Below are positions 4,923-62,994 of a DNA stretch of 64,000 nucleotides, one piece after another. The notes below the pieces were generated by a model. The model was not told the origin of the DNA. It ran no database searches and saw nothing but the letters and a program-made list of their open reading frames with translations. This DNA is from Candidatus Kaiserbacteria bacterium (GTDB lineage: Bacteria; Patescibacteriota; Minisyncoccia; Phycocordibacterales; Phycocordibacteraceae), in contig JAPLWH010000006.1 of NCBI GenBank assembly GCA_026396715.1, forward strand, positions 42,850-106,849. Direction: 5' to 3'. The translations under genes and the position numbers were made by a program. Position 1 is the stretch's first letter. Each line of letters starts with the position of its first letter.

Positions 4923-5527
4923 GGCATGAGATGGTCATTGACCGTTACCGAATAGGAATTGTTGTGAAAACTCCACGATACGGTGGAGACGATACGTACA
5001 TCATTTGCCGAAACATCGACCGCCTGGATCGTGCGGGTATAGGGAGTCGGTACCGATCCCGCGATGCCGCTCTGCTCAGTGTAGATCCCGTTCGCCAGAT
5101 AGAGCGGCGCGCAGGACGCTCCCGAGCAGGGCTGGAGCGCGAAGCCGCTTCCGGAACCCATGCTCCGCGCCGGGTCAAGCGTGCAAGTCGCCGCGCGGCA
5201 CTGTGTGATAGATCCTGCGCTCGATCCGGTAAGAAAATCAGTCCATGCGGCGGTCGAGACGCCCGTGCCGCCCGCCTGATACGCAAGAAGATACTCATTG
5301 TCACGCATCGCGCGCGCGTACTCAATGCCCTCCTGAGCGAGATACGAAGCGGTCAGTTTCTGACGAGCCAGTTGCGCAGCGACGATCGCGCGACTCGCGG
5401 TAAACAGAGGCCCGGTAACCGCGAGCGTGACGATAGTGATAGCGACCATCGCCTCGATGAGAGTAAATCCGCAGAGCCGTGTTTGCTCCCTGCGCCCGTT
5501 CGCAAAAGAAAAAATAGAACTGCTCAT
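4913..5527 (-). CDS. Type IV prepilin-like protein (minor pilin)
   Basis: Prepilin cleavage/methylation motif CGFTLIEAMVAITIV; start set at internal Met (MSSSIFSF...) because ORF-track start gives an implausibly long leader. Confidence 0.6.
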   Translation of the reverse strand: MSSSIFSFANGRREQTRLCGFTLIEAMVAITIVTLAVTGPLFTASRAIVAAQLARQKLTASYLAQEGIEYARAMRDNEYLLAYQAGGTGVSTAAWTDFLTGSSAGSITQCRAATCTLDPARSMGSGSGFALQPCSGASCAPLYLANGIYTEQSGIAGSVPTPYTRTIQAVDVSANDVRIVSTVSWSFHNNSYSVTVNDHLMPWQ

Positions 5528-5583
5528 TTGTCTCGCTTGCTTGGTAGTGAACCCCGCTGAAGGATGCATGGATTTTTTCATAC

Positions 5584-28071: not shown

Positions 28072-30015
28072 ATGAATCCATCACCATCACCAGCCCCGGC
28101 ACCAGCCCCGACGCCTGCACCCGCTCCGAGACCGGAGCATGAGGCGCAACCGAGTCATGCTCGACCACACAGAAGTTTTGAGCGCGGCGACCGGCCGACC
28201 GGCCGCGGCAGCTCTCGTCCCGGAAGTGGATCACGCCCGGGAGGCGCAACTCGCCGCATCCAGCGCATACTCCGCCGCCCGACGGCCACCTCCTCGCGTG
28301 CCGTCCGCACGGTAGACTACTTCCCCGAAGCTCCGGGCCCGACGACCGTTCGCATCATTCCGCTCGGCGGCGTGGAAGAAGTCGGTCGCAATATGATTGC
28401 GGTCGAAGTCGGCGCAACCGGCGACATCATCGTCTTCGATGCAGGCTTCCAATTCGTCTCTGAAGAATCTTCTCCCGGAGTTGACTACATCCTTCCGAAT
28501 ACCCGGTATCTCGAGAAGAATGCCTCGCGCGTGAAAGGTGTCGTCATCACGCACGGACACCTCGACCACATCGGTGGTATTCCTTTCATTCTTCCCCGCT
28601 TCGGCACACCGCCCATCTACACACAGAAGCTCACCTCCGTCATGATTGCGCGGCGTCAGGAAGAATATCCGGACGTACCGAAATCAGAAATGATCGTCGT
28701 CGAAGTCGGCCAGACCGTCACCATCGGCTCGACCAAAGTGAAGTTCTTCCCGGTTACGCACTCGATTCCCGACTCGATGGGCGCTTCGGTAGAAACGCCG
28801 CAGGGTAACGTCGTGATATCAGGCGACTTGAAGCTCGACCATGATGACGGCATTCCTACCGCTCGCGAGAATAAGACCTGGGGCGATATCGGCAAAGACA
28901 AGAACATCTTCCTCGTCGCCGACTCCACGAACGCCGAGAAGGACGGCTTCTCCATTCCCGAGATACGCGTCATCCAGACGCTCGAAAACATCATCAAGAC
29001 GGTCTCGGGACGCCTCATCATCGGCACTTTCGCTTCGCAGTTCGAGCGCATGATCCACATCATGGAAACCGCCGAGAAGCACAACAAAAAGATCGTCCTT
29101 GTCGGCCGCTCGATAAAGACTAATCTCGAAATCGCCGAAAAAACTGGTCTCTTGAAAGTGCCCAAAAATACCTTCATACCCGAACAGGAGCTCAGTGACT
29201 ATCCGCCCGACAAGATCGTCATCCTCTCGACCGGCGCGCAGGGTGAAGAGTTCGGGGGACTCATGCGCCTTTCGACAAAACAGAACAAGTACATCACGTT
29301 GAACGAGCGCGACACTATCGTGCTCTCCTCGTCGGTCATCCCGGGCAATGAGATCGCCGTGCAGAAACTCAAGGACAACCTCTACCGCCACAACGTGACG
29401 CTCATCCACTACCGATCGAGTGACGTGCACTCGACCGGCCACGGCAATACGGGCGAGCTCGTCTGGATCAATAAGCAGGTGCACCCGGCGTTCTTTATGC
29501 CAGGCTATGGCTACCGCTCTATGACGACCTGTCACGCGAAAGCGGTCGAGCAGTCCGGCTTTCCGCGCGAAAACATCATCATCGCGGATAACGGCACCGT
29601 CATCGACATCGACGACGGCGTACGCATGAACGTGCACAAGCAGAAAGTGCCTTCGACCCCGATGGTCGTCGACGGCTTCACGATCGGTGACATCCAGGAG
29701 GTCGTCATCCGCGACCGCCAGTCGCTCGCAAAAGACGGCATGTTCGTCATCATCGCGAGCGTGAACCTGAAGACCGGAAAACTGCGCAAGTCGCCGGACA
29801 TCATCAGTCGCGGCTTCATCTACCTGCGTGAGTCACAAGACCTCCTGAATGAGGCACGTATCCTCATCAAGAAGACGATCGAAGATTCAACTGGCAATAT
29901 GAACCCTATCGACCTCGACTACGTGAAGAACAATCTGACCGACGTCGTCGCCGGATTCCTCTTCGCGCGCACCAACAAGGCGCCGATGGTCATCCCGGTG
30001 CTAATAGGAATGTAA
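28072..30015 (+). CDS. rnj: Ribonuclease J (metallo-beta-lactamase/beta-CASP) with ~100-aa Pro/Ala/Arg-rich N-terminal extension
   Basis: HxHxDH motif ITHGHLDHIGG, beta-CASP and C-terminal domain; N-terminus PSPAPAPAPTPAPAPRPE...GSGSRPGG low complexity. Confidence 0.9.
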   Translation: MNPSPSPAPAPAPTPAPAPRPEHEAQPSHARPHRSFERGDRPTGRGSSRPGSGSRPGGATRRIQRILRRPTATSSRAVRTVDYFPEAPGPTTVRIIPLGGVEEVGRNMIAVEVGATGDIIVFDAGFQFVSEESSPGVDYILPNTRYLEKNASRVKGVVITHGHLDHIGGIPFILPRFGTPPIYTQKLTSVMIARRQEEYPDVPKSEMIVVEVGQTVTIGSTKVKFFPVTHSIPDSMGASVETPQGNVVISGDLKLDHDDGIPTARENKTWGDIGKDKNIFLVADSTNAEKDGFSIPEIRVIQTLENIIKTVSGRLIIGTFASQFERMIHIMETAEKHNKKIVLVGRSIKTNLEIAEKTGLLKVPKNTFIPEQELSDYPPDKIVILSTGAQGEEFGGLMRLSTKQNKYITLNERDTIVLSSSVIPGNEIAVQKLKDNLYRHNVTLIHYRSSDVHSTGHGNTGELVWINKQVHPAFFMPGYGYRSMTTCHAKAVEQSGFPRENIIIADNGTVIDIDDGVRMNVHKQKVPSTPMVVDGFTIGDIQEVVIRDRQSLAKDGMFVIIASVNLKTGKLRKSPDIISRGFIYLRESQDLLNEARILIKKTIEDSTGNMNPIDLDYVKNNLTDVVAGFLFARTNKAPMVIPVLIGM

Positions 30016-30145
30016 ATCCGCAAAGCCGGATTTCCTCCCTACGCTTGCCTCGGACAAATGCATGCAGACATGCTTTGCCGCTCGGCTCGCTTGGCAGTAA
30101 GCTAAGCTCGACAGACAAAGCGTACCCAGCAAGTAAGGGGAGCGA

Positions 30146-30186
30146 CAGAACGCAGCGAGGTAATCCTCGCTGCGTTCTGCTTTTTG
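30146..30186 (+). terminator. Rho-independent terminator (15-bp perfect stem + T-run)
   Basis: cagaacgcagcgagg taat cctcgctgcgttctg cttttt. Confidence 0.7.
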
Positions 30187-30241
30187 CCCTTCACAAAGCT
30201 CATTCCAGAAGGTTAGATGGCCTCACCCGCACCAGCGCCCC

Positions 30242-30269
30242 TTGACTCTCAAACCAGATGCACTATAAA
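30242..30269 (+). promoter_or_regulatory. Near-consensus sigma70 promoter (TTGACT-16-TATAAA)
   Basis: TTGACT 30242-30247, TATAAA 30264-30269. Confidence 0.5.
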
Positions 30270-30285
30270 TGCATACAGACAGAAA

Positions 30286-30312
30286 ATACATTCTCAATTT
30301 TTGAGAATGTAT
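30286..30312 (+). promoter_or_regulatory. Perfect 12-bp palindrome (operator-like) between promoter and SD
   Basis: atacattctcaa ttt ttgagaatgtat. Confidence 0.6.
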
Positions 30313-30340
30313 CGCTCATTTCACAAAGGAGGATCTATCG

Positions 30341-30559
30341 ATGACTAAAGTAATTCCTGATCTGGAACCACCACCAACATTAACGTTCGCATGCACAGAA
30401 TGCGGACAAAGTTCCGATCGACCGCCTGGATCTGGAAGTATGATTGTTACCTGCAAAAAGCAGGTCGCCGGACCACCAGAGGCACCAGAACAAAATCGAG
30501 AATGTGGCAAAAGAAACGCCCTACAGCGTCTAGCCCCACCACTCCTGAAAACCGCCTGA
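30341..30559 (+). CDS. Small Cys/Pro-rich hypothetical protein (72 aa), possible zinc-ribbon
   Basis: SD aaaGGAGGat 7 nt upstream of ATG; CTEC...C...C; followed by hairpin 30563-30600. Confidence 0.4.
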   Translation: MTKVIPDLEPPPTLTFACTECGQSSDRPPGSGSMIVTCKKQVAGPPEAPEQNRECGKRNALQRLAPPLLKTA

Positions 30560-30605
30560 CCGTTTAACTGGGTGGAGACTTCATGTCTTCCACCCAGTTT
30601 TGCTT

Positions 30606-31412
30606 TTACTCTGCGAGCGAATACATCGTGCCTTTTTTCTGTATTAATTGTTCCCTACGCAACGCCTCCAGAGCTTCGAGTAATTGCACCCGTCGCGAGA
30701 CATCGAAAAGTTTCATAATGCTCGCTTGCGAAGCGACTTCTTTAGAAAGAAGCCGCAAAATGGCGCCACGCGACTCCCGCAAGGACCCAACAAATTTCGA
30801 TTGCTTTGCATACGTTGCGCTCTTCTTATTGAGCGAGATGCCTGAGCGTTTCAAGTGCGCTCCATAATCCATAAGCGCGCTATACCACTCTCGCGACCTC
30901 CCTTTCGGCAGCGCCTCGGCGAGGATTTTTTCTATCTCCACATCCGACACTTTTTTCTTATCTGAAAAAAAATGATGCGTGACTGCCGTGCGGATATTCG
31001 TTTCAATCACAACAACATCTTGATTGTACGCAAATGCCACCACAGCACGCGCAGTGTAGGGACCAACGCCCGGTAATCGCTCCAACTCTGTTGCAGAACT
31101 CACTTTCGTAATGGCAAGTTCTTTTGCGGCGGCGTGCAGCAGCTTCGCGCGACGATTGTAGCCGAGTCCCTGCCAGCTTTTCAGAACTTCAGAGAGCGGC
31201 GCGGCGGCAAGCCGACGCGCCGTCGGAAACTTCTTCAGGAAAGCGTTGTAAAAAGGAATCACTCGCTCCACTTGTGTCTGCTGCAGCATCACTTCCGAAA
31301 CGAGAATGCGGTACACGTCATGATTCTTCCGCCACGGCAAGTCATGCCGCCCCCGCGCGTGATAGTGCCGCCACACGATTATCCTGAACTCTTTCAATAC
31401 CATCGGCACCAT
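30606..31412 (-). CDS. HhH-GPD superfamily DNA glycosylase (MutY/Nth-like, apparently lacking Fe-S cluster Cys)
   Basis: 268 aa; helix-hairpin-helix LPGVGPYTARAV with catalytic D region; C-terminal extra domain. Confidence 0.7.
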   Translation of the reverse strand: MVPMVLKEFRIIVWRHYHARGRHDLPWRKNHDVYRILVSEVMLQQTQVERVIPFYNAFLKKFPTARRLAAAPLSEVLKSWQGLGYNRRAKLLHAAAKELAITKVSSATELERLPGVGPYTARAVVAFAYNQDVVVIETNIRTAVTHHFFSDKKKVSDVEIEKILAEALPKGRSREWYSALMDYGAHLKRSGISLNKKSATYAKQSKFVGSLRESRGAILRLLSKEVASQASIMKLFDVSRRVQLLEALEALRREQLIQKKGTMYSLAE

Positions 31413-31418
31413 CCTACC

Positions 31419-32087
31419 TCATTTCGCTTTCGGCCAACGGAGGGCGGAGGGCGGCCAGAGCTTTGTGAGGGGGTGCGCCAGGCAGTTATGCGGACGCGCG
31501 GAGCACACGTACCGGCCGTAAAGCACGAGGCCGTTATTCACATATTTCCAGTCTTTTTTAGGGATGAGTGCTTCGAGGTCTTTCGATATTTTCTTGAGAT
31601 CATTCTGGTCAGTGAGGTCGAGACGCTTCGCAAAGCGCTTCACGTGCGTATCGGTTGCAATGCCCTCCCAGATGCCGTAGAGGTCGCCGAGAATGACGTG
31701 CGCCGTCTTGTAACCCACTCCTGGAAGCGCGACGAGCTCTGACTCCGTACGCGGCACGGCCCCCTTGTGCCGCGTTTGTATTTCTTTGGCCGCACCGATG
31801 ATCGCTTTCGCTTTATTACGGAAGAATGTCACGGAAGAGATTTCTTTCGTAAAAACTGCCGCATCCGCTTTCGCAAAATCTTTTGGCGTCTTGTATTTCT
31901 TGAAGAGCGTCGCCGTCAGCTTATTTACCGCTTTGTCCGTACACTGCGCCGAAAGGATGACCGCAACGACAAATTGAAATGGTGTCGTGTGCACGAGCTC
32001 GCTTGCTGGCGTCGGATACGCTTTTTTCAGATACGCGACAATCTTCTTTGCTCGAAGTACGCGCTCGGTCTGTTTCGCCGGAGTCAT
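31419..32087 (-). CDS. nth: Endonuclease III (Nth)
   Basis: 222 aa; HhH LPGVGYKTAHVILG, catalytic K/D spacing; partial Fe-S Cys region. Confidence 0.85.
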   Translation of the reverse strand: MTPAKQTERVLRAKKIVAYLKKAYPTPASELVHTTPFQFVVAVILSAQCTDKAVNKLTATLFKKYKTPKDFAKADAAVFTKEISSVTFFRNKAKAIIGAAKEIQTRHKGAVPRTESELVALPGVGYKTAHVILGDLYGIWEGIATDTHVKRFAKRLDLTDQNDLKKISKDLEALIPKKDWKYVNNGLVLYGRYVCSARPHNCLAHPLTKLWPPSALRWPKAK

Positions 32088-32557
32088 TGCGCAAGAGTTT
32101 TTAGGTCCGCGATAACTGACGCCGCATGCGTTTTAGGCTTCACTTTTTCATACACCTTCGCGATCTCCCCTTCTGGATTGATGAGGAAGGAGGTACGGCT
32201 GATACCCATGTATGTTTTCCCCATGAACTTTTTCTCGCCAAAAACGCCATACTGTCCGACGACTTCTTTGTACTCATCGGCAAGCAGTGTAAACGGCAGT
32301 TCATACGCGCTCGCGAATTTCTTATGACTCGCGACGCTGTCGGTCGAAACACCAAGTACGACTACTCCTATCGCAGCAAAATCCTTGAATTGGTCGCGGA
32401 TGGTGCAGGCCTCAATCGTGCACCCCGGCGTATCATCTTTCGGATAGAAATAGAGCAACACCCACTTCCCCTGATAGTCGGAAAGCGTATGCGTCTTCCC
32501 CTCCTGATCAGGAAGCGTAAAGTCAGGTGCGCGCGTACCTATCGTTGGTAGTTCCAT
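32084..32557 (-). CDS. bcp: Peroxiredoxin Bcp (thiol peroxidase, 1-Cys/atypical 2-Cys)
   Basis: 157 aa; peroxidatic Cys motif DDTPGCTIEAC. Confidence 0.92.
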   Translation of the reverse strand: MELPTIGTRAPDFTLPDQEGKTHTLSDYQGKWVLLYFYPKDDTPGCTIEACTIRDQFKDFAAIGVVVLGVSTDSVASHKKFASAYELPFTLLADEYKEVVGQYGVFGEKKFMGKTYMGISRTSFLINPEGEIAKVYEKVKPKTHAASVIADLKTLAQ

Positions 32558-32672
32558 CCCGTTAGAAATAGGACGCGGACATGCGGTGCACGACCACGAA
32601 GTCTATTTGATTAGAATTGATAAAATCGACCTCCCAAAACTTCTGGATTTCGCGTCCGCGATTTCTAACGGG
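32558..32672. repeat. Imperfect inverted repeat (cccgttagaaat ... atttctaacggg) flanking AT-rich 88-nt core
   Basis: 32558-32570 vs 32661-32672 perfect 12-bp arms, GC-rich extensions partly complementary. Confidence 0.5.
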
Positions 32673-32686
32673 ATCCATCAACAAAA

Positions 32687-33862
32687 CTATAACAGCTCCG
32701 GTGTATGCTCCTCATGCGGAAAAGCGAAATTGAAGAAAATGAGAAGGAGTGCGCCAGCAGTAAAGATAGTGAAAAGAAGCACCGTAAGCGGACCGATGGT
32801 CGGTACGAGTGAGATGAGCGAGAGTGCGAGCATACCGATCACACCGTCGCGCCAGAGCACCGTCTCACGGCCGCGGAGACGTCGTGCCAGCACACTACCC
32901 AGCAAGATGCCCGCATAGAGAAAGGCAAACAAAGAGAGTAGTGCATACAAGATGAGGAGCAGAAAAGCGAGACCGATACCGACGAAGGTCAGCGCGAGCA
33001 ATACAATCAGTACCGGCGACGCGACGAGGATTGCAAAACCGAGCAGCATCGTAAGCAGCACGCTTCGTAACCGTTCCGCATGCGCGCGCTCGACGACCGC
33101 CTCCGCAAGCTTCGGGAACAGTCCGGCCAAAAGTCCAGTAAGAATGAGCGCTCCGAAAATACGCGCAAAGAGGAAGAAGCCAATGCTCACGATCGCGAGC
33201 GTGCGCGAGGTGCCAGCATCTGGCAGATACGACGCATTCGTGTACTCAAGACCACCGAGCGTCGTCACGGACGCGGGCAGCGTCGCAAGCTCTGGCGACT
33301 GATAAGAAAACTTTCCATGGATCGTGGTATTTTCCGCAAGCGTAACCCTACCGCTCGCGATAACATCGACATTACCCAAGAAATCTCCGGCGAGCGCGAC
33401 ATTATTGCCGTAAATGGTTACCGGACCCGCTGCACCATTGGACACGGTGGCATTTGCCGCAACAATGAAGACACTTCCTGCAACGCGAGCAGAATCATCC
33501 ACGGATACGCCGAGAGCCAAGAGATCTCCCGCGATCGGTTCCTCGATGAAGATACTCCCGCCGAGTGCCCGAAGATCGCCCATAACCCGCGCGCGCGAAT
33601 TGATTGAGCCAGCGACAAGCAATTCATCACCCTTGACGTTCGCGGCGGTGACAATCGAACCGCCGAGTGCCGAGAAATCGCCCGTGACGGGTGCCGTGAG
33701 TACGACAGATGCACCAGCAACATACGCATTCCCGGGTGACGAACTTGCCGCAAGTAATGAACGTGCGGCACTAAAAGATGCGGGAGCACTTGCTGCAAGA
33801 GCGCTTGCTGGCAAAAGAAGCGAGAGAGAAACAAGAGTAAGGGCTCGCCGCATAGTATCCAT
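32687..33862 (-). CDS. Secreted/membrane protein with bactofilin/DUF4097-like beta-helical repeats and C-terminal polytopic TM domain
   Basis: Start MDTMRRALTLVSLSLLLPASALA (signal peptide); ~8 tandem ~17-aa repeats (..GD..ALGGS..); 5-6 C-terminal TM helices. Confidence 0.6.
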   Translation of the reverse strand: MDTMRRALTLVSLSLLLPASALAASAPASFSAARSLLAASSSPGNAYVAGASVVLTAPVTGDFSALGGSIVTAANVKGDELLVAGSINSRARVMGDLRALGGSIFIEEPIAGDLLALGVSVDDSARVAGSVFIVAANATVSNGAAGPVTIYGNNVALAGDFLGNVDVIASGRVTLAENTTIHGKFSYQSPELATLPASVTTLGGLEYTNASYLPDAGTSRTLAIVSIGFFLFARIFGALILTGLLAGLFPKLAEAVVERAHAERLRSVLLTMLLGFAILVASPVLIVLLALTFVGIGLAFLLLILYALLSLFAFLYAGILLGSVLARRLRGRETVLWRDGVIGMLALSLISLVPTIGPLTVLLFTIFTAGALLLIFFNFAFPHEEHTPELL

Positions 33863-33864
33863 AC

Positions 33865-34317
33865 CTACACAATAAGAGGCGGCGAGCTTTGCGCGCTTCG
33901 AGACAGTGGCTCGATGAAACTCGCGCAAATGAGAATGACGAGCGCGATGAATGCGGACGCGAGGCAGTAGATGCAGAGCGCATTAATGACGAACACCTGT
34001 ATGAGTGTGAAATAGAGCGACGCGATGACACCGATAAGCGAAATGCCCTGCAGTGCGCGGCGCAGGAGCTGATCGAAAACGACAAGCTCGAGCGCCGCAA
34101 GCACGAAGAGGATGCTGTAAAAGATGATGCCGTACTCGGCGATCGGCACACCGAACAAATACGAGTACGGGCTCGCCACGACGATATTGCAGCCCGAGAG
34201 ATTGTTGATATCGCAGATAAGCGGCGCGCCACTTGTCTCATGCTGGGCGATATACGCGGAATCCGCGAGCCCGAGGAAAGAGAGAGCTAAGATGGCAATG
34301 ACGCCAGCGCGTTTCAT
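33865..34317 (-). CDS. Vitamin K epoxide reductase (VKOR) family membrane protein
   Basis: Start MKRAGVIAIL; 4 TM; CxxC redox motif CIYC; loop Cys pair (CDINNLSGC). Confidence 0.75.
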   Translation of the reverse strand: MKRAGVIAILALSFLGLADSAYIAQHETSGAPLICDINNLSGCNIVVASPYSYLFGVPIAEYGIIFYSILFVLAALELVVFDQLLRRALQGISLIGVIASLYFTLIQVFVINALCIYCLASAFIALVILICASFIEPLSRSAQSSPPLIV

Positions 34318-34368
34318 CCCTCTAGGATACGCGCTGTTTCCTCTCTCTGCAAATGCTATGCTTTCGAC

Positions 34369-34719
34369 ATGAAGGAACTGACGCCCGAGGAATATCGCGT
34401 GCTGCGCGAAGGCGGTACTGAAACCCCTTTCTCGGGAACGTATGTCGACCATCACGAAGCGGGCAGCTACGCTTGCAAAGCGTGTGGCGCACCCTTATTC
34501 AATTCAGATGCAAAATTCGACTCCGGCACCGGTTGGCCTTCTTTTACCGATCCGGCTGTCGCAGAAAACGTCGGCACGCGTCACGACAGAGAACGCACCG
34601 AGGTTTTTTGTAAGCACTGTGGTGGCCACCTCGGACACGTCTTCAATGACGGCCCCACGAAGAAAGGTGGTAAACGGTATTGTATAAATTCAGTGTGCCT
34701 GGATTTCAAGAAAGAATAA
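34369..34719 (+). CDS. msrB: Peptide-methionine (R)-S-oxide reductase MsrB
   Basis: 116 aa; CxxC...CxxC zinc site (CKACG, CKHCG), RYCINS active site. Confidence 0.92.
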   Translation: MKELTPEEYRVLREGGTETPFSGTYVDHHEAGSYACKACGAPLFNSDAKFDSGTGWPSFTDPAVAENVGTRHDRERTEVFCKHCGGHLGHVFNDGPTKKGGKRYCINSVCLDFKKE

Positions 34720-34816
34720 TCTTGCTTCGAAAATATATCGTCTACAAGCGACTATCACATAAAGACCGGTCTCGTATTTTGAACGATTTTTACTCTTTAG
34801 AAAACCGAGAGAAAAA

Positions 34817-35296
34817 TCAGATATGGCACACGACTTGACCAGGATGTTTCTCGGCGTAACGTTGGTGATAGTCTTCAGCTTTCCAGAATTCCTTCGCGGG
34901 CTCGACTGAGGTCGCGATTGTTCGCGGAAGATACTGCGGAGCGAGCTCTTTCGCGATATGCTCAGCGATCTCTTTTTGTTCCGGCGAATGGTAGAAAATG
35001 ACCGAGCGGTACTGCTCGCCCACATCCGGGCCCTGCCGACTCATCTGGGTCGGGTCGTGGAGCGTGAAAAACTTCTTGACCAACGTTTCGTACGAAACCT
35101 GTTCAGGATCAAATGAAATCTCAACCGCCTCGGCATGCCCGGTCATACCAGTGCATACATTCTCATACGTCGGCTGTTTAACGTGCCCGCCCGTGTAGCC
35201 GGAGACGACACTAGTAACCCCGGGCACTAAACGAAACGATGCCTCGACACCCCAAAAGCATCCCGCCGCAAACGTCGCCTGACCCAGTTTTTCCAT
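34817..35296 (-). CDS. msrA: Peptide-methionine (S)-S-oxide reductase MsrA
   Basis: 159 aa; active site GCFWG. Confidence 0.92.
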   Translation of the reverse strand: MEKLGQATFAAGCFWGVEASFRLVPGVTSVVSGYTGGHVKQPTYENVCTGMTGHAEAVEISFDPEQVSYETLVKKFFTLHDPTQMSRQGPDVGEQYRSVIFYHSPEQKEIAEHIAKELAPQYLPRTIATSVEPAKEFWKAEDYHQRYAEKHPGQVVCHI

Positions 35297-54266: not shown

Positions 54267-54291
54267 AAGTTTTTAAGTAATCTTGCTTCCT

Positions 54292-54343
54292 GCGCTCGCT
54301 CGGGGAAGAGAAGTAGAACCTTCTCTTCCCCTCGCTCGCTGGG
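54292..54343. repeat. Intergenic repeat element copy A: GCGCTCGCTCGG – 12-bp hairpin – TCGCTCGCTGGG
   Basis: ggggaagagaag tagaac cttctcttcccc flanked by direct CGCTCGCT(C/G)GG repeats. Confidence 0.55.
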
Positions 54344-54383
54344 AAGTAAAAAATAAAGCTCCGAAGAGCGTGCTGTTAAGATA

Positions 54384-62738: not shown

Positions 62739-62794
62739 AATTATCGAATTACGTTAGTAAATCACGAATAAAGAGGATTCTTACGAACCTCTTC

Positions 62795-62856
62795 CTGTCA
62801 TCGCTCGCTCGGAAAAGATAATGAGGACATTCTCTTTTCACTTGCTCGCTCGACAG
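62795..62856. repeat. Intergenic repeat element copy B: TCGCTCGCTCGG – imperfect hairpin – TGCTCGCTCGACAG
   Basis: gaaaagataatg agga cattctcttttc with flanking CTCGCTCG direct repeats and ctgtca/cgacag outer inverted ends. Confidence 0.5.
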
Positions 62857-62994
62857 TAATCCGACGCGAGTCGGAACAAACTCTACAGCTTGCCGACTCA
62901 CAAAAAGCAGACAAGCCAAAGAGCGACGCCAAGATGCGTTAAAGGCACTATACGAGAAGCGTCTGTGGAATGCAACCTGCAGCGGGGACAAGGG

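What the first reader, a model, noticed from the sequence alone, without database searches (positions are those of the whole stretch)
30016..30605. Compact self-contained module: promoter – perfect 12-bp operator palindrome – SD – 72-aa Cys/Pro-rich ORF – hairpin
The region after rnj has lower GC. Two terminators bracket a ~110-nt segment (30041-30186), which could be an sRNA. A near-consensus TTGACT-16-TATAAA promoter follows, then a perfect palindrome atacattctcaa-ttt-ttgagaatgtat, a strong SD and a small ORF with CxxC…C…C (zinc-ribbon-like). This looks like a tightly repressed small gene of foreign or regulatory origin.
Basis: seen in the sequence. Interest (0 to 1): 0.5.

Follow-up and report, generated by a model that had tools for sequence, protein, structure and literature searches.

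The report
Orphan small zinc-ribbon gene, conserved promoter
A real, stand-alone gene for a tiny (72-residue) cysteine-rich protein that protein databases have almost entirely missed sits after the RNase J gene of an uncultivated groundwater-type bacterium (Patescibacteria); its promoter and leader are nearly invariant across relatives while the protein itself varies strongly, and the eye-catching 12-bp palindrome is a peculiarity of this one genome rather than a conserved repressor site.

Summary
The exception is the first of the two "terminators", which is only a 5-bp hairpin with no T run.

The 72-aa ORF (30341-30559) is a real gene. An ORF in the same frame, with the same Shine-Dalgarno sequence, ATG and terminator, sits in the same rnj-glycosylase slot in ten related Patescibacteria contigs. 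dN/dS is 0.2-0.5. Most orthologues carry a classical CxxCG...CxxCGK zinc ribbon. The window's allele has a 14-residue insertion splitting the second knuckle.

The family matches no Pfam, NCBIfam, PHROG, PADLOC or PDB family above threshold. Among 1.84 billion representative proteins only one homologue had been called.

A 48-nt promoter core (30241-30288) shows 0-2 substitutions in nine of ten modules, although synonymous divergence in rnj reaches 1.0-1.4. The coding region falls into three alleles that are 38-45% identical. Allele type disagrees with the flanking genes in three short contigs (L081, L082, L085).

The perfect palindrome is not conserved. Relatives have a 6-bp stem or none, so it reads best as a lineage-specific leader hairpin, not an operator.

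The "sRNA" segment is the rnj 3' UTR. It holds one copy of a dispersed ~85-nt hairpin repeat followed by the rnj terminator.

Biochemical function is unknown. Interest is moderate.

The parts
28072..30015 (+). rnj (RNase J, 647 aa), the upstream neighbour. It is not part of the module but anchors its conserved position.
   Evidence: Pfam RNase_J_b_CASP, RNase_J_C and Lactamase_B. 74-97% identical to RNase J in 80 Patescibacteria MAG loci.
30016..30031 (+). Weak 5-bp hairpin (ATCCG-CAAAGC-CGGAT).
   Evidence: Read from the sequence. Not reported by the terminator scan. It pairs in the minimum-free-energy fold of the 3' UTR.
30025..30110 (+). One copy of a dispersed ~85-nt imperfect-hairpin repeat (TTYCTCCCTRCGCTYGCC...stem-loop...GCTCGCTTGGTAGTAA), lying in the rnj 3' UTR.
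   Evidence: nhmmer and covariance-model hits: four copies in the window, and copies beside rnj in L001, L015, L032, L038, L050, L058 and L059. In the RNAalifold consensus, 8 of 14 pairs keep pairing through changes on both sides.
30146..30185 (+). Intrinsic terminator of rnj: a 15-bp perfect stem, a 4-nt loop and a T5 run.
   Evidence: -29.7 kcal/mol. An orthologous hairpin with compensatory changes is present in relatives.
30241..30288 (+). Near-invariant promoter core: -35 TTGACT (30242-47), a 16-nt spacer, -10 TATAAA (30264-69), an inferred transcription start near 30275-30277, and the first ~12 nt of the leader (ACAGACAGAAAATA).
   Evidence: 0-2 substitutions in 48 nt in 9 of 10 modules, although rnj dS reaches 1.0-1.4. 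Unique in the window. One of 3 sites in the 64 kb matching at least 10 of 12 consensus positions.
30286..30312 (+). Perfect inverted repeat, 12 nt per arm with a 3-nt spacer, in the leader. As RNA it forms a 12-bp hairpin of -12.2 kcal/mol. It is specific to this genome.
   Evidence: Relatives have only a 6-bp TCTCAA/TTGAGA stem (L010, L083, L084) or none (L001, L081, L082, L085, L015, L043). No other copy in the window or loci.
30316..30340 (+). Conserved ribosome-binding region TCATTTCACAAAGGAGGA plus an 8-nt spacer.
   Evidence: TTTCA[CT]AAAGGAGG is present in 8 modules; alignment. The leader hairpin does not occlude the Shine-Dalgarno sequence in the minimum-free-energy fold.
30341..30559 (+). 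CDS of the 72-aa orphan zinc-ribbon-type protein, allele type A. Ligand candidates are Cys18, Cys21, Cys38 and Cys55. A 14-aa insertion (Q41-E54) splits the second CxxC knuckle. The conserved C-terminus is LLKTA.
   Evidence: ORF. Orthologous ORFs in the same frame in L001, L010, L015, L043, L081-L085 and L032. Alignment A3. dN/dS 0.2-0.5. Other frames are not conserved. AF2 gives five beta-strands at pLDDT 58.
30566..30609 (+). Intrinsic terminator of the small gene: an 11-bp perfect stem (14 bp with one bulge) followed by TTTTGCTTTT. It abuts the stop codon of the convergent glycosylase gene.
   Evidence: -25.2 kcal/mol. 73-95% identical across modules, and AACTGGGTGGAGAC / TCC.CCCAGTTTT is invariant in the five aligned modules. 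On the minus strand no T run follows the hairpin (sequence).
30606..31412 (-). Convergent HhH-GPD DNA glycosylase gene, the downstream neighbour. It is the first gene seen of the glycosylase-nth-bcp cluster.
   Evidence: Pfam HhH-GPD 1.1e-18. Synteny conserved in all module-bearing loci.

Best explanation
Bases 30241-30609 are a monocistronic transcription unit of about 330 nt. It belongs to a small clade of Kaiserbacteria/Paceibacteria-like Patescibacteria.

Inferred mechanism:
- A housekeeping-type (sigma-70-like) promoter starts transcription near 30275-30277.
- A ~65-nt leader with a strong Shine-Dalgarno sequence drives translation of a 72-aa soluble protein.
- The gene's own intrinsic terminator ends the RNA at about 30605-30610.

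The protein has a single Cys4 zinc-ribbon-type core between a Pro/acidic N-terminal tail and a Pro-rich C-terminal tail ending in LL[KR][ST]A. I infer that it is a small zinc-dependent adaptor that binds a protein or a nucleic acid. Its partner is unknown.

Selection acts in an unusual pattern:
- The promoter core, ribosome-binding region and terminator are under strong purifying selection.
- The coding region has diverged into at least three alleles. I infer that these are swapped between lineages by homologous recombination through the conserved flanks.

The perfect 12-bp palindrome is a lineage-specific extension of an ancestral 6-bp leader stem. I infer that a single templated (quasi-palindrome) mutation produced it. 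If it acts at all, it acts as an RNA hairpin on the 5' leader, affecting stability or processing, rather than as a repressor operator.

The upstream 'sRNA' segment is the rnj 3' UTR. It carries a REP-like dispersed hairpin repeat and the rnj terminator.
For: The gene is real:
- The ORF, Shine-Dalgarno sequence and ATG are kept in frame in 10 other contigs, and the stop sits just before a terminator hairpin. All length differences are multiples of 3, including a 42-nt indel.
- The second Cys of each knuckle, the Gly after each (CG) and Arg27 are invariant. The third Cys, the Pro of the RP motif, the G-S pair, the PL.P motif and the C-terminal L...A are conserved in at least 90% of sequences. 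The position of the first Cys shifts by one residue in allele type B (CxC instead of CxxC).
- dN/dS is 0.22-0.54.
- The antisense and +2 frames are open only because the CDS is T-poor (16-21% T). The antisense frame has no conserved start codon, and the +2 frame is interrupted in L015, L083 and L085.

It is an orphan family:
- Nothing above threshold in Pfam, NCBIfam, PHROGs, PADLOC or PDB.
- Word-indexed searches of 5.8 billion proteins and an exhaustive HMMER search of 1.84 billion representatives find only P0001, a JGI hypothetical protein from the same locus type.

The regulatory DNA is constrained:
- The 48-nt core has 0-2 substitutions in 9 of 10 modules.
- Promoter plus leader is 82-100% identical among the nine modules other than L043, and the terminator is 68-95% identical across all modules, against CDS identities of 52-62% between allele types.
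- Synonymous divergence in the rnj tail is 0.25-1.4.

Alleles are discordant with their flanks:
- L001 vs L082: CDS dS 1.66 against rnj dS 0.25.
- L010 vs L085: CDS dS 0.12 against rnj dS 0.88.
- L081 has L083-like flanks (rnj tail 99% identical; the spacer upstream of the promoter is nearly identical by eye in the alignment) but an L001-like leader and CDS (92% identical).

The palindrome is lineage-specific. Against L010, the changes cluster in the right arm (CGTAAC to ATGTAT), and they make it the exact complement of the left arm.

The position is fixed: the module lies in the same gene context in every module-bearing locus examined.
Against: - There is no expression evidence at all: no RNA-seq, transcription-start mapping or proteomics. 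The promoter, transcription start and translation are inferred from sequence and conservation.
- The -10 hexamer lacks the usually conserved final T.
- In the window's allele the second zinc knuckle is split by 14 residues, so zinc binding by this particular protein is uncertain. AF2 confidence is low (pLDDT 58).
- GC3 is 0.34, atypical for this genome.
- The clearest evidence for allele swapping rests on short, low-coverage metagenome contigs (L081, L082, L085), which could be assembly chimeras joined at the conserved ~50-100-nt segments.
- Among the long contigs (window, L001, L010, L015, L043), allele type could simply track phylogeny.
- A perfect 27-bp symmetric site just downstream of the start is also what a newly acquired operator would look like.
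- The biochemical role is not established by any test here.
Confidence: 0.65

Rival explanations
1. One reading: the 12-bp perfect palindrome is the operator of a dimeric repressor, which sits at about +9 to +35 and keeps a small regulatory gene tightly off.
For: The symmetry is perfect (12 nt per arm, 3-nt spacer) and far beyond chance: 0 of 100 shuffles. It lies immediately downstream of the inferred transcription start. A shorter TCTCAA-N3-TTGAGA core is shared with L010, L083 and L084.
Against: The long palindrome is absent from all nine other modules. The left half-site is lost in L001, L081, L082, L085 and L015, even though their promoter core is identical or nearly so. There is no second copy or half-site cluster in the 64 kb or in the 85 loci. 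The one near half-site, at 35155, lies inside msrA. No DNA-binding regulator is encoded next to the module. Twenty-seven bp is long for a simple operator.
Confidence: 0.12
2. The locus is a non-coding RNA gene or cis-regulatory RNA. Under this reading the conserved parts (the 5' 50 nt, the ribosome-binding region, the terminator) are the functional RNA, and the ORF is incidental.
For: The non-coding flanks are much better conserved than the ORF. GC3 is atypically low. Gene callers almost never call the ORF.
Against: A start codon, a Shine-Dalgarno sequence at the correct spacing and an open frame ending just before the terminator are all maintained across three alleles whose synonymous divergence is saturated. 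Indels are in-frame. Cys, Gly and Pro positions are conserved and dN/dS is below 1. No conserved leader structure exists. There is no Rfam match other than a chance hairpin hit.
Confidence: 0.05
3. The module is a horizontally mobile or foreign cassette, for example phage-derived or a defence/anti-defence gene, that has landed in the rnj-glycosylase spacer.
For: GC is lower and GC3 is 0.34. The module is absent from the L002 and L069 loci, which share the same flanking genes, and in L053 the same slot holds a different small ORF. Allele type is discordant with the flanks. The CDS evolves rapidly.
Against: The module is always at the same chromosomal slot in the same orientation. It has no terminal repeats, integrase or transposase. 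No homologue was found in phage genomes, plasmids or viral contigs, and there were only sub-threshold hits in PHROGs and PADLOC. The low GC3 persists across orthologues despite saturated dS, which argues for a maintained property rather than a recent import.
Confidence: 0.15
4. The protein is a highly divergent ribosomal protein bL31, or another zinc-ribbon ribosomal protein. That would explain the strong, conserved, monocistronic expression signals.
For: Type-B alleles resemble the bL31 N-terminus in Cys spacing (SCxCG, then 16-17 residues, then CSKC, starting at residue 2-3). There are weak hits to bL31 in NCBIfam (4 members, best E 0.035) and in PDB (E 0.044-1).
Against: The score is 13 bits against a curated cut-off of 70. 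The hhalign probability is 3%. The hallmark HPF[YF]TG and GRV[DE]RF motifs are absent. Three alleles 38-45% identical among genomes whose RNase J is 83-99% identical are unlike a ribosomal protein.
Confidence: 0.03

Closest known systems
Small one-domain C(P)XCG zinc-finger micro-proteins of Haloferax volcanii (e.g. HVO_2753, HVO_0758; PMC11241148, PMC10716476, PMC6562870)
   Same: Size is similar (under about 75 aa). Both have a single domain built from two C(P)XCG-type knuckles about 16-20 residues apart (types B and C: CPCG/CxxCG ... CxKCGK). Both have stand-alone genes and mostly unknown partners. Some archaeal members do not bind zinc (title of PMC11241148), which is relevant to the split knuckle in the window's allele.
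   Different: No detectable homology: HVO_2753 gets 18 bits against a cut-off of 80, and only for the distant L032 member. The host is bacterial (Patescibacteria). There are Pro-rich tails and a conserved LL[KR][ST]A C-terminus. The window's allele has a 14-aa insertion in the second knuckle.
Prophage-type small zinc-binding proteins: ECs_2282 family (NF047912), YnfU family (NF038384), Lar restriction-alleviation family (TIGR03655)
   Same: These are about 50-60-aa proteins with CxxC...CxxC. They give the best-scoring named families for some alleles (24.3 bits, E 2.2e-5 for L043).
   Different: All scores are below the curated cut-offs (37, 36 and 39.6 bits). The window protein itself gives no hit. 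The genomic context is not a prophage, and there are no phage homologues.
Ribosomal protein bL31 (rpmE), zinc-binding type
   Same: Similar length. The N-terminal zinc-ribbon Cys spacing resembles that of type-B alleles. The gene is monocistronic with a strong promoter, ribosome-binding site and terminator.
   Different: Profile-profile probability is 3%. The HPFxTG and GRVDRF motifs are absent. The coding sequence is hypervariable.
Polymorphic small-gene loci with conserved flanks that are exchanged by homologous recombination (e.g. streptococcal comC and staphylococcal agrD pherotype alleles); comparison from general knowledge, as an analogy for the evolutionary pattern only
   Same: Discrete, deeply diverged alleles of a very short CDS lie between highly conserved flanking DNA. 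In the short contigs L081, L082 and L085, allele type is discordant with the neighbouring genes.
   Different: There is no signal or leader peptide, no processing, export or sensor genes nearby, and the protein is a cytoplasmic-looking zinc ribbon. The discordance rests on short metagenome contigs.
REP/BIME-like repetitive extragenic palindromes (for the 30025-30110 element)
   Same: Short (~85 nt), intergenic, multi-copy imperfect hairpins with covarying stems.
   Different: The sequence is unrelated and there is no Rfam family. In relatives the copies cluster immediately on either side of rnj. No associated transposase was examined.

Membership tests
Cys4 zinc ribbon (generic fold class) | Two CxxC-type knuckles about 15-20 residues apart | tested here: inconclusive
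   Met in orthologues of types B and C (CPCG/CxxCG, then 16-19 residues, then CxxCGK). In the window protein the first knuckle is intact (C18-x2-C21) but the second is C38-x16-C55 because of a 14-aa insertion.
Cys4 zinc ribbon (generic fold class) | Beta-hairpin 'ribbon' fold that places the four Cys around one metal | tested here: inconclusive
   AF2 gives five short beta-strands, with Cys18, Cys38 and Cys55 in strands and Cys21 in the loop between the first two. Mean pLDDT is 58 and pTM 0.35 from a 2-sequence alignment. This is too weak for a fold search.
Cys4 zinc ribbon (generic fold class) | Stoichiometric zinc binding | not testable with these tools
   Needs purified protein (ICP-MS or a PAR assay).
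Any curated protein family (Pfam, NCBIfam, PHROGs, PADLOC) | Score at or above the family's curated threshold | tested here: not met
   For the window protein the best hits are DUF7848 at 13.8 bits (cut-off 24.5) and Zn_ribbon_TFIIS at 11.6 bits (cut-off 21). NCBIfam gives no hit for the window protein, and ECs_2282 reaches 24.3 bits (cut-off 37) for L043. PHROGs and PADLOC give only weak, scattered hits.
Ribosomal protein bL31 | Profile match, HPF[YF]TG motif after the second knuckle, and a C-terminal GRV[DE]RF domain | tested here: not met
   13 bits against a cut-off of 70. hhalign probability 3%. The motifs are absent from alignment A3 and present in A7.
Sigma-70-type promoter | -35 and -10 hexamers at 16-18 nt spacing | tested here: inconclusive
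   TTGACT (5 of 6), 16 nt, TATAAA (5 of 6), 10 of 12 overall. It is one of 3 such sites in the 64 kb. It lacks the final T of the -10 hexamer, so the stricter scan does not list it. No transcription-start data exist.
Sigma-70-type promoter | Conservation of the hexamers in orthologous positions | tested here: met
   Both hexamers are invariant in all 10 modules found with the pattern, and the core has 0-2 changes in 9 of them. The distant L032 module has TTGACG, 16 nt, TATAAC.
Repressor operator | The symmetric site is conserved at orthologous promoters | tested here: not met
   The 12-bp arms are found only in the window. L010, L083 and L084 have a 6-bp core, and six other modules have none.
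Repressor operator | Further copies of the site in the genome (a regulon) or an adjacent cognate regulator | tested here: not met
   No second copy in the 64 kb or in the 85 loci. The neighbours are rnj and DNA-repair genes. The rest of the genome could not be searched.
Intrinsic terminator | GC-rich hairpin followed directly by a T run | tested here: met
   30146-30179 followed by TTTTT. 30566-30599 followed by TTTTGCTTTT. The scan did not list the second because its loop is longer than the scan allows. Not met for 30016-30031 (a 5-bp stem with no T run).
Independent small RNA gene (30041-30186) | Own promoter, own terminator, and conservation as a unit or a match to a known RNA family | tested here: not met
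   No promoter-like site lies between the rnj stop codon and the element. No Rfam match at E up to 10. Only the 85-nt repeat part recurs elsewhere, in both orientations relative to genes. A terminator is present, but it serves rnj.
REP-like dispersed repeat (30025-30110) | Multiple intergenic copies with a conserved imperfect hairpin | tested here: met
   Four copies in the window at 67-79 bits and nine in related loci. Of 14 consensus pairs, 8 show changes on both sides that keep the pair.

The most novel reading that the evidence does not exclude
The module is a polymorphic locus under balancing or frequency-dependent selection in an ultra-small episymbiotic bacterium. In this reading a strongly and uniformly expressed zinc-ribbon micro-protein exists as deeply diverged alleles that are shuffled between lineages through near-invariant promoter and terminator 'handles'. 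That pattern would point to a role in conflict or recognition, such as a phage, host or self/non-self interaction. A thiol-zinc redox-switch role is another option, given the neighbouring oxidative-damage genes glycosylase, nth, bcp, msrB and msrA. Either role would be a new functional class of small protein specific to the Candidate Phyla Radiation.
Probability: 0.15. Interest if true: 0.7.

Novelty: new variant of a known kind. Interest (0 to 1): 0.42.

Why it matters
Small proteins of Candidate Phyla Radiation bacteria are almost unexplored, and this case shows how thoroughly they are missed. One homologue had been called among 1.84 billion representative proteins, although the gene is present in at least ten public contigs.

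The locus also gives a rare, clean look at a Patescibacteria promoter and leader under strong purifying selection. That makes it useful as a reference for promoter and ribosome-binding-site architecture in organisms that cannot be cultured.

The contrast between near-invariant expression signals and a hypervariable coding region, which may also be exchanged by recombination, is a testable signature of a conflict or recognition function.

For the scan itself, the case is a caution. The most eye-catching feature, a perfect palindrome, is the least conserved part of the module.

Tried and rejected
1. Rfam search of 29500-31200 at E up to 10 and of the whole window at gathering thresholds. It returned only chance miRNA-like hits on the hairpins and one tRNA-Ser.
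2. Search for a regulon of the palindrome or its half-site. There are no further copies, and the one-mismatch half-site at 35155 lies inside msrA.
3. A LexA/SOS-box lead (CTAT-N8-ACAG and ATGCA-N6-ATGCA overlapping the -10 hexamer). There is no other copy in the window. The paper describing the Patescibacteria LexA motif is not held. The secondary source (PMC7739468) cites that paper among cases in which LexA evolved to recognise a direct-repeat motif but gives no sequence. Left untested.
4. Protein homology by single sequence and two profiles, exhaustive HMMER, PDB profile search and four family libraries. Apart from the single homologue P0001, these returned only generic zinc-finger noise. 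P0002 and P0003 are multi-repeat proteins, not relatives.
5. The bL31 hypothesis: rejected.
6. Phage, plasmid or viral origin: no hits.
7. A conserved leader RNA structure or Shine-Dalgarno sequestration: minimum-free-energy folds differ between modules, and the Shine-Dalgarno sequence is not sequestered by any conserved pairing.
8. An antisense or +2-frame gene: these frames are open only because of T-poor composition and are not conserved.
9. A short upstream ORF (ATGCATACAGACAGAAAATAA). It overlaps the -10 hexamer and has no Shine-Dalgarno sequence, so I dismissed it from the sequence.
10. Fold search: not run, because the AF2 model is too low in confidence.
Full report
**What is in the sequence.**
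- The window comes from a Patescibacteria (Candidate Phyla Radiation) genome. Its RNase J (28072-30015; Pfam beta-CASP and RNase_J_C) is 97% identical to that of a MAG labelled Candidatus Nomurabacteria. It is 74-93% identical to 79 other MAG loci, variously labelled (Kaiserbacteria, Paceibacterota, Parcubacteria, Saccharibacteria and others).
- GC drops from 0.54-0.60 to 0.46-0.50 downstream of rnj.
- The listed features are all present: a strong terminator at 30146-30179 plus T5; TTGACT, 16 nt, TATAAA at 30242-30269; a perfect inverted repeat (12 nt per arm, 3-nt spacer) at 30286-30312; AAAGGAGGA 8 nt before the ATG at 30341; a 72-aa ORF ending at 30559; and a hairpin at 30566-30599 followed by TTTTGCTTTT.
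- The palindrome is far beyond chance. None of 100 shuffles matched even with three mismatches allowed.
- The promoter-like site is one of only three in the 64 kb that match at least 10 of 12 consensus positions. It lacks the final T of the -10 hexamer, so the stricter scan does not list it.
- The 'first terminator' (30016-30031) is only a 5-bp stem with no T run.

**The ORF is a real gene.**
- The protein has no family hit and no homologue by word-indexed search. No gene with exactly this product is on record.
- DNA comparison with the 80 rnj loci nevertheless found the module downstream of rnj in L001, L010, L015 and L043.
- A scan of metagenome contigs for the conserved promoter pattern added L082-L085. 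A profile search added P0001 on contig L081. An HMM over all six-frame ORFs of the loci added a distant member in L032.
- In every case an ORF of 57-74 codons starts at a conserved ATG behind the same Shine-Dalgarno sequence. It stays open in the same frame and stops just before the terminator hairpin.
- Length differences are multiples of three, including a 42-nt indel.
- The second Cys of each knuckle, the Gly that follows it and Arg27 are invariant. The third Cys, the Pro of the RP motif, a G-S pair, a PL.P motif and the C-terminal L...A are conserved in at least 90% of sequences. The first Cys shifts by one position in type-B alleles.
- dN/dS is 0.22-0.54.
- The antisense and +2 frames are open only because the CDS is T-poor (16-21% T). 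The antisense frame has no conserved start, and the +2 frame is broken in L015, L083 and L085.

**What the protein is.**
- Alleles of types B and C carry a classical zinc-ribbon signature: CPCG or CxxCG, 16-19 residues, then CxxCGK.
- The window's type-A allele (shared with L001 and L081) has a 14-residue insertion between the two cysteines of the second knuckle. Its zinc binding is therefore inferred, not assured.
- AF2 on the two admissible sequences gives five short beta-strands, but only pLDDT 58.
- Pfam, NCBIfam, PHROGs, PADLOC and a PDB profile search return only sub-threshold, generic zinc-finger matches.
- A resemblance of type-B N-termini to ribosomal protein bL31 was followed up and rejected. 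It scores 13 bits against a cut-off of 70, hhalign gives 3% probability, and the HPFxTG and GRVDRF motifs are missing.
- An exhaustive HMMER search of 1.84 billion representative proteins finds only P0001. A profile of all ten members against 5.8 billion proteins also finds only P0001.
- There are no relatives in phage genomes, plasmids or viral contigs.
- This is therefore an orphan, lineage-restricted family of zinc-ribbon-type micro-proteins that gene callers almost always miss. Its GC3 of 0.34, against 0.57-0.74 in neighbouring genes, is probably one reason.

**Evolutionary pattern.**
- The module always lies in the same context: sbp, rnj, the module, then the glycosylase, nth and bcp genes on the minus strand.
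- It is missing in L002 and L069, which share the same flanking genes. In L053 the slot holds a different small ORF.
- Synonymous divergence in the last 130 codons of rnj is 0.25-0.46 among the window, L001 and L082. It is 1.0-1.4 between the window and L010, L015, L043 and L085.
- Against that background, the 48-nt promoter core (30241-30288) has 0-2 substitutions in nine of ten modules.
- Promoter plus leader is 82-100% identical among the nine modules other than L043, which is the outlier at 70-76%. The terminator is 68-95% identical.
- The spacer upstream of the promoter and the centre of the leader are poorly conserved.
- The CDS is only 52-62% identical between allele types, with saturated dS.
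- The islands of conservation coincide with functional boundaries: -36 to about +12, the ribosome-binding region and the terminator. That argues for purifying selection on the expression signals rather than recent transfer of a long tract.
- Allele type is discordant with the flanks in several contigs. L001 and L082 share identical promoter and leader and have rnj dS 0.25, yet their CDS dS is 1.66. L010 and L085 have rnj dS 0.88 but CDS dS 0.12. L081 has L083-like flanks but an L001-like leader and CDS.
- This suggests allele replacement by homologous recombination through the conserved flanks.
- The caveat is that the clearest discordant contigs (L081, L082, L085) are short, low-coverage metagenome assemblies that could be chimeric. 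Among the long contigs, allele type could simply follow phylogeny.

**The palindrome.**
- It is not conserved. L010, L083 and L084 have only TCTCAA-TTT-TTGAGA. L001, the closest relative with the same protein allele, has no comparable inverted repeat, and neither do L081, L082, L085, L015 and L043.
- Minimum-free-energy folds of the leaders share no structure, and the Shine-Dalgarno sequence is not sequestered by any conserved pairing. In the window the hairpin (-12.2 kcal/mol) ends 13 nt before the Shine-Dalgarno sequence.
- There is no second copy in the window or in the 85 loci.
- Relative to the L010-type leader, the differences cluster in six adjacent bases of the right arm. Together they make that arm the exact complement of the left arm.
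- That is what a single template-switch 'quasi-palindrome correction' would produce. This step is inference from established mutational mechanisms.
- I therefore read the palindrome as a lineage-specific leader hairpin that at most affects mRNA stability or processing.
- The operator model is not excluded for this one genome, but it lacks every comparative feature expected of an operator.

**The 'sRNA' segment.**
- Bases 30025-30110 are one copy of a ~85-nt imperfect-hairpin repeat.
- A covariance model finds four copies in the window (5476-5560, 30025-30110, 54276-54359, 62785-62869), all on the + strand.
- It finds nine copies in related loci, eight of them immediately beside rnj. Copies upstream of rnj are in the - orientation and copies downstream are in the + orientation. 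L059 has both.
- Eight of the 14 consensus pairs keep pairing through changes on both sides.
- There is no promoter between the rnj stop codon and the element, and no Rfam match.
- The segment is best described as the rnj 3' UTR: a REP-like repeat followed by the rnj terminator. Processing of this UTR into a stable RNA cannot be excluded without expression data.

**Mechanism, and what is shown versus inferred.**
- Shown: the sequence features; conservation of the ORF and its signals; orphan status; fixed position; lack of conservation of the palindrome; the repeat family.
- Inferred: that the promoter is used and where transcription starts; that the protein binds zinc and acts as a small binding adaptor; that alleles are exchanged by recombination; and that the palindrome arose by templated mutation and acts at the RNA level.
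- The neighbouring genes are all concerned with oxidative damage: HhH-GPD glycosylase, nth, bcp, msrB and msrA. A thiol-zinc redox role is therefore a reasonable hypothesis, but nothing here tests it.

**Verdict.** This is a real but ordinary-sized discovery: a new, unannotated family of small zinc-ribbon-type proteins in a narrow Patescibacteria clade. It has unusually conserved expression signals and a hypervariable coding region. Its regulatory interpretation (operator, tight repression, foreign origin, sRNA) is mostly not supported.

Noticed in passing
window 5476-5560, 30025-30110, 54276-54359, 62785-62869 (all + strand); L001 3579-3665(-), L050 3817-3902(-), L032 3044-3129(-), L059 1990-2076(-) and 4039-4118(+), L038 5885-5971(+), L015 5894-5977(+) and 1738-1822(-), L058 1725-1806(+): A dispersed ~85-nt imperfect-hairpin repeat (TTYCTCCCTRCGCTYGCC...covarying stem...GCTCGCTTGGTAGTAA) with no Rfam family. 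In relatives, 8 of 9 copies lie directly beside rnj: inverted when upstream, forward when downstream. L059 has both, so its rnj mRNA could carry complementary 5' and 3' ends. The orthologous copies may reduce this to two ancestral insertions, so the association with rnj is not established.
   Followed up: partly
window 30606-35296: A cluster of oxidative-damage genes surrounds the module: HhH-GPD glycosylase (30606-31412, -), endonuclease III-like nth (31419-32087, -), peroxiredoxin Bcp/AhpC-TSA (32084-32557, -), MsrB/SelR (34369-34719, +) and MsrA/PMSR (34817-35296, -).
   Followed up: partly
window 30341-30559 and orthologues: The small ORF has GC3 of 0.34 (0.32-0.53 in orthologues) against 0.57-0.74 in neighbouring genes, and it is T-poor (16-21% T). 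As a result nearly all frames are open. The bias persists despite saturated synonymous divergence and is unexplained.
   Followed up: partly
window 28072-28350: RNase J carries a ~90-residue low-complexity Pro/Ala/Arg/Ser-rich N-terminal extension (PAPAPTPAPAP...), with local GC of 0.68. Its length varies between relatives: matches to the query begin anywhere from residue 1 to 79.
   Followed up: no
L053 5920-6180 (minus strand); L002 5880-5960: The same rnj-glycosylase spacer holds a different small basic ORF on the opposite strand in L053. In L002 it holds only a single bidirectional terminator. The slot appears to turn over small genes.
   Followed up: no
window 30606-31412 vs L001/L082: Between the window and its closest relatives the glycosylase gene is much more diverged (about 74% nucleotide identity) than rnj (about 92%) on the other side of the module. 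This suggests a recombination boundary at or near the module, or very different constraints on the two genes.
   Followed up: partly
window 40928 (-) and 58136 (+): These are the only other sites in the 64 kb that match the sigma-70 consensus at 10 or more of 12 positions (TTGACA-16-TAAAAT and TTGACA-16-TATAGA). Near-consensus promoters are rare in this genome.
   Followed up: no
window 30258-30273: A direct repeat ATGCA-N6-ATGCA (also readable as the inverted repeat ATGCA-N7-TGCAT) overlaps the -10 hexamer inside the near-invariant core. It could be a regulator site. It is unique in the window, and its left copy varies (ATGCT or ATGCC) in L015, L043 and L083.
   Followed up: partly
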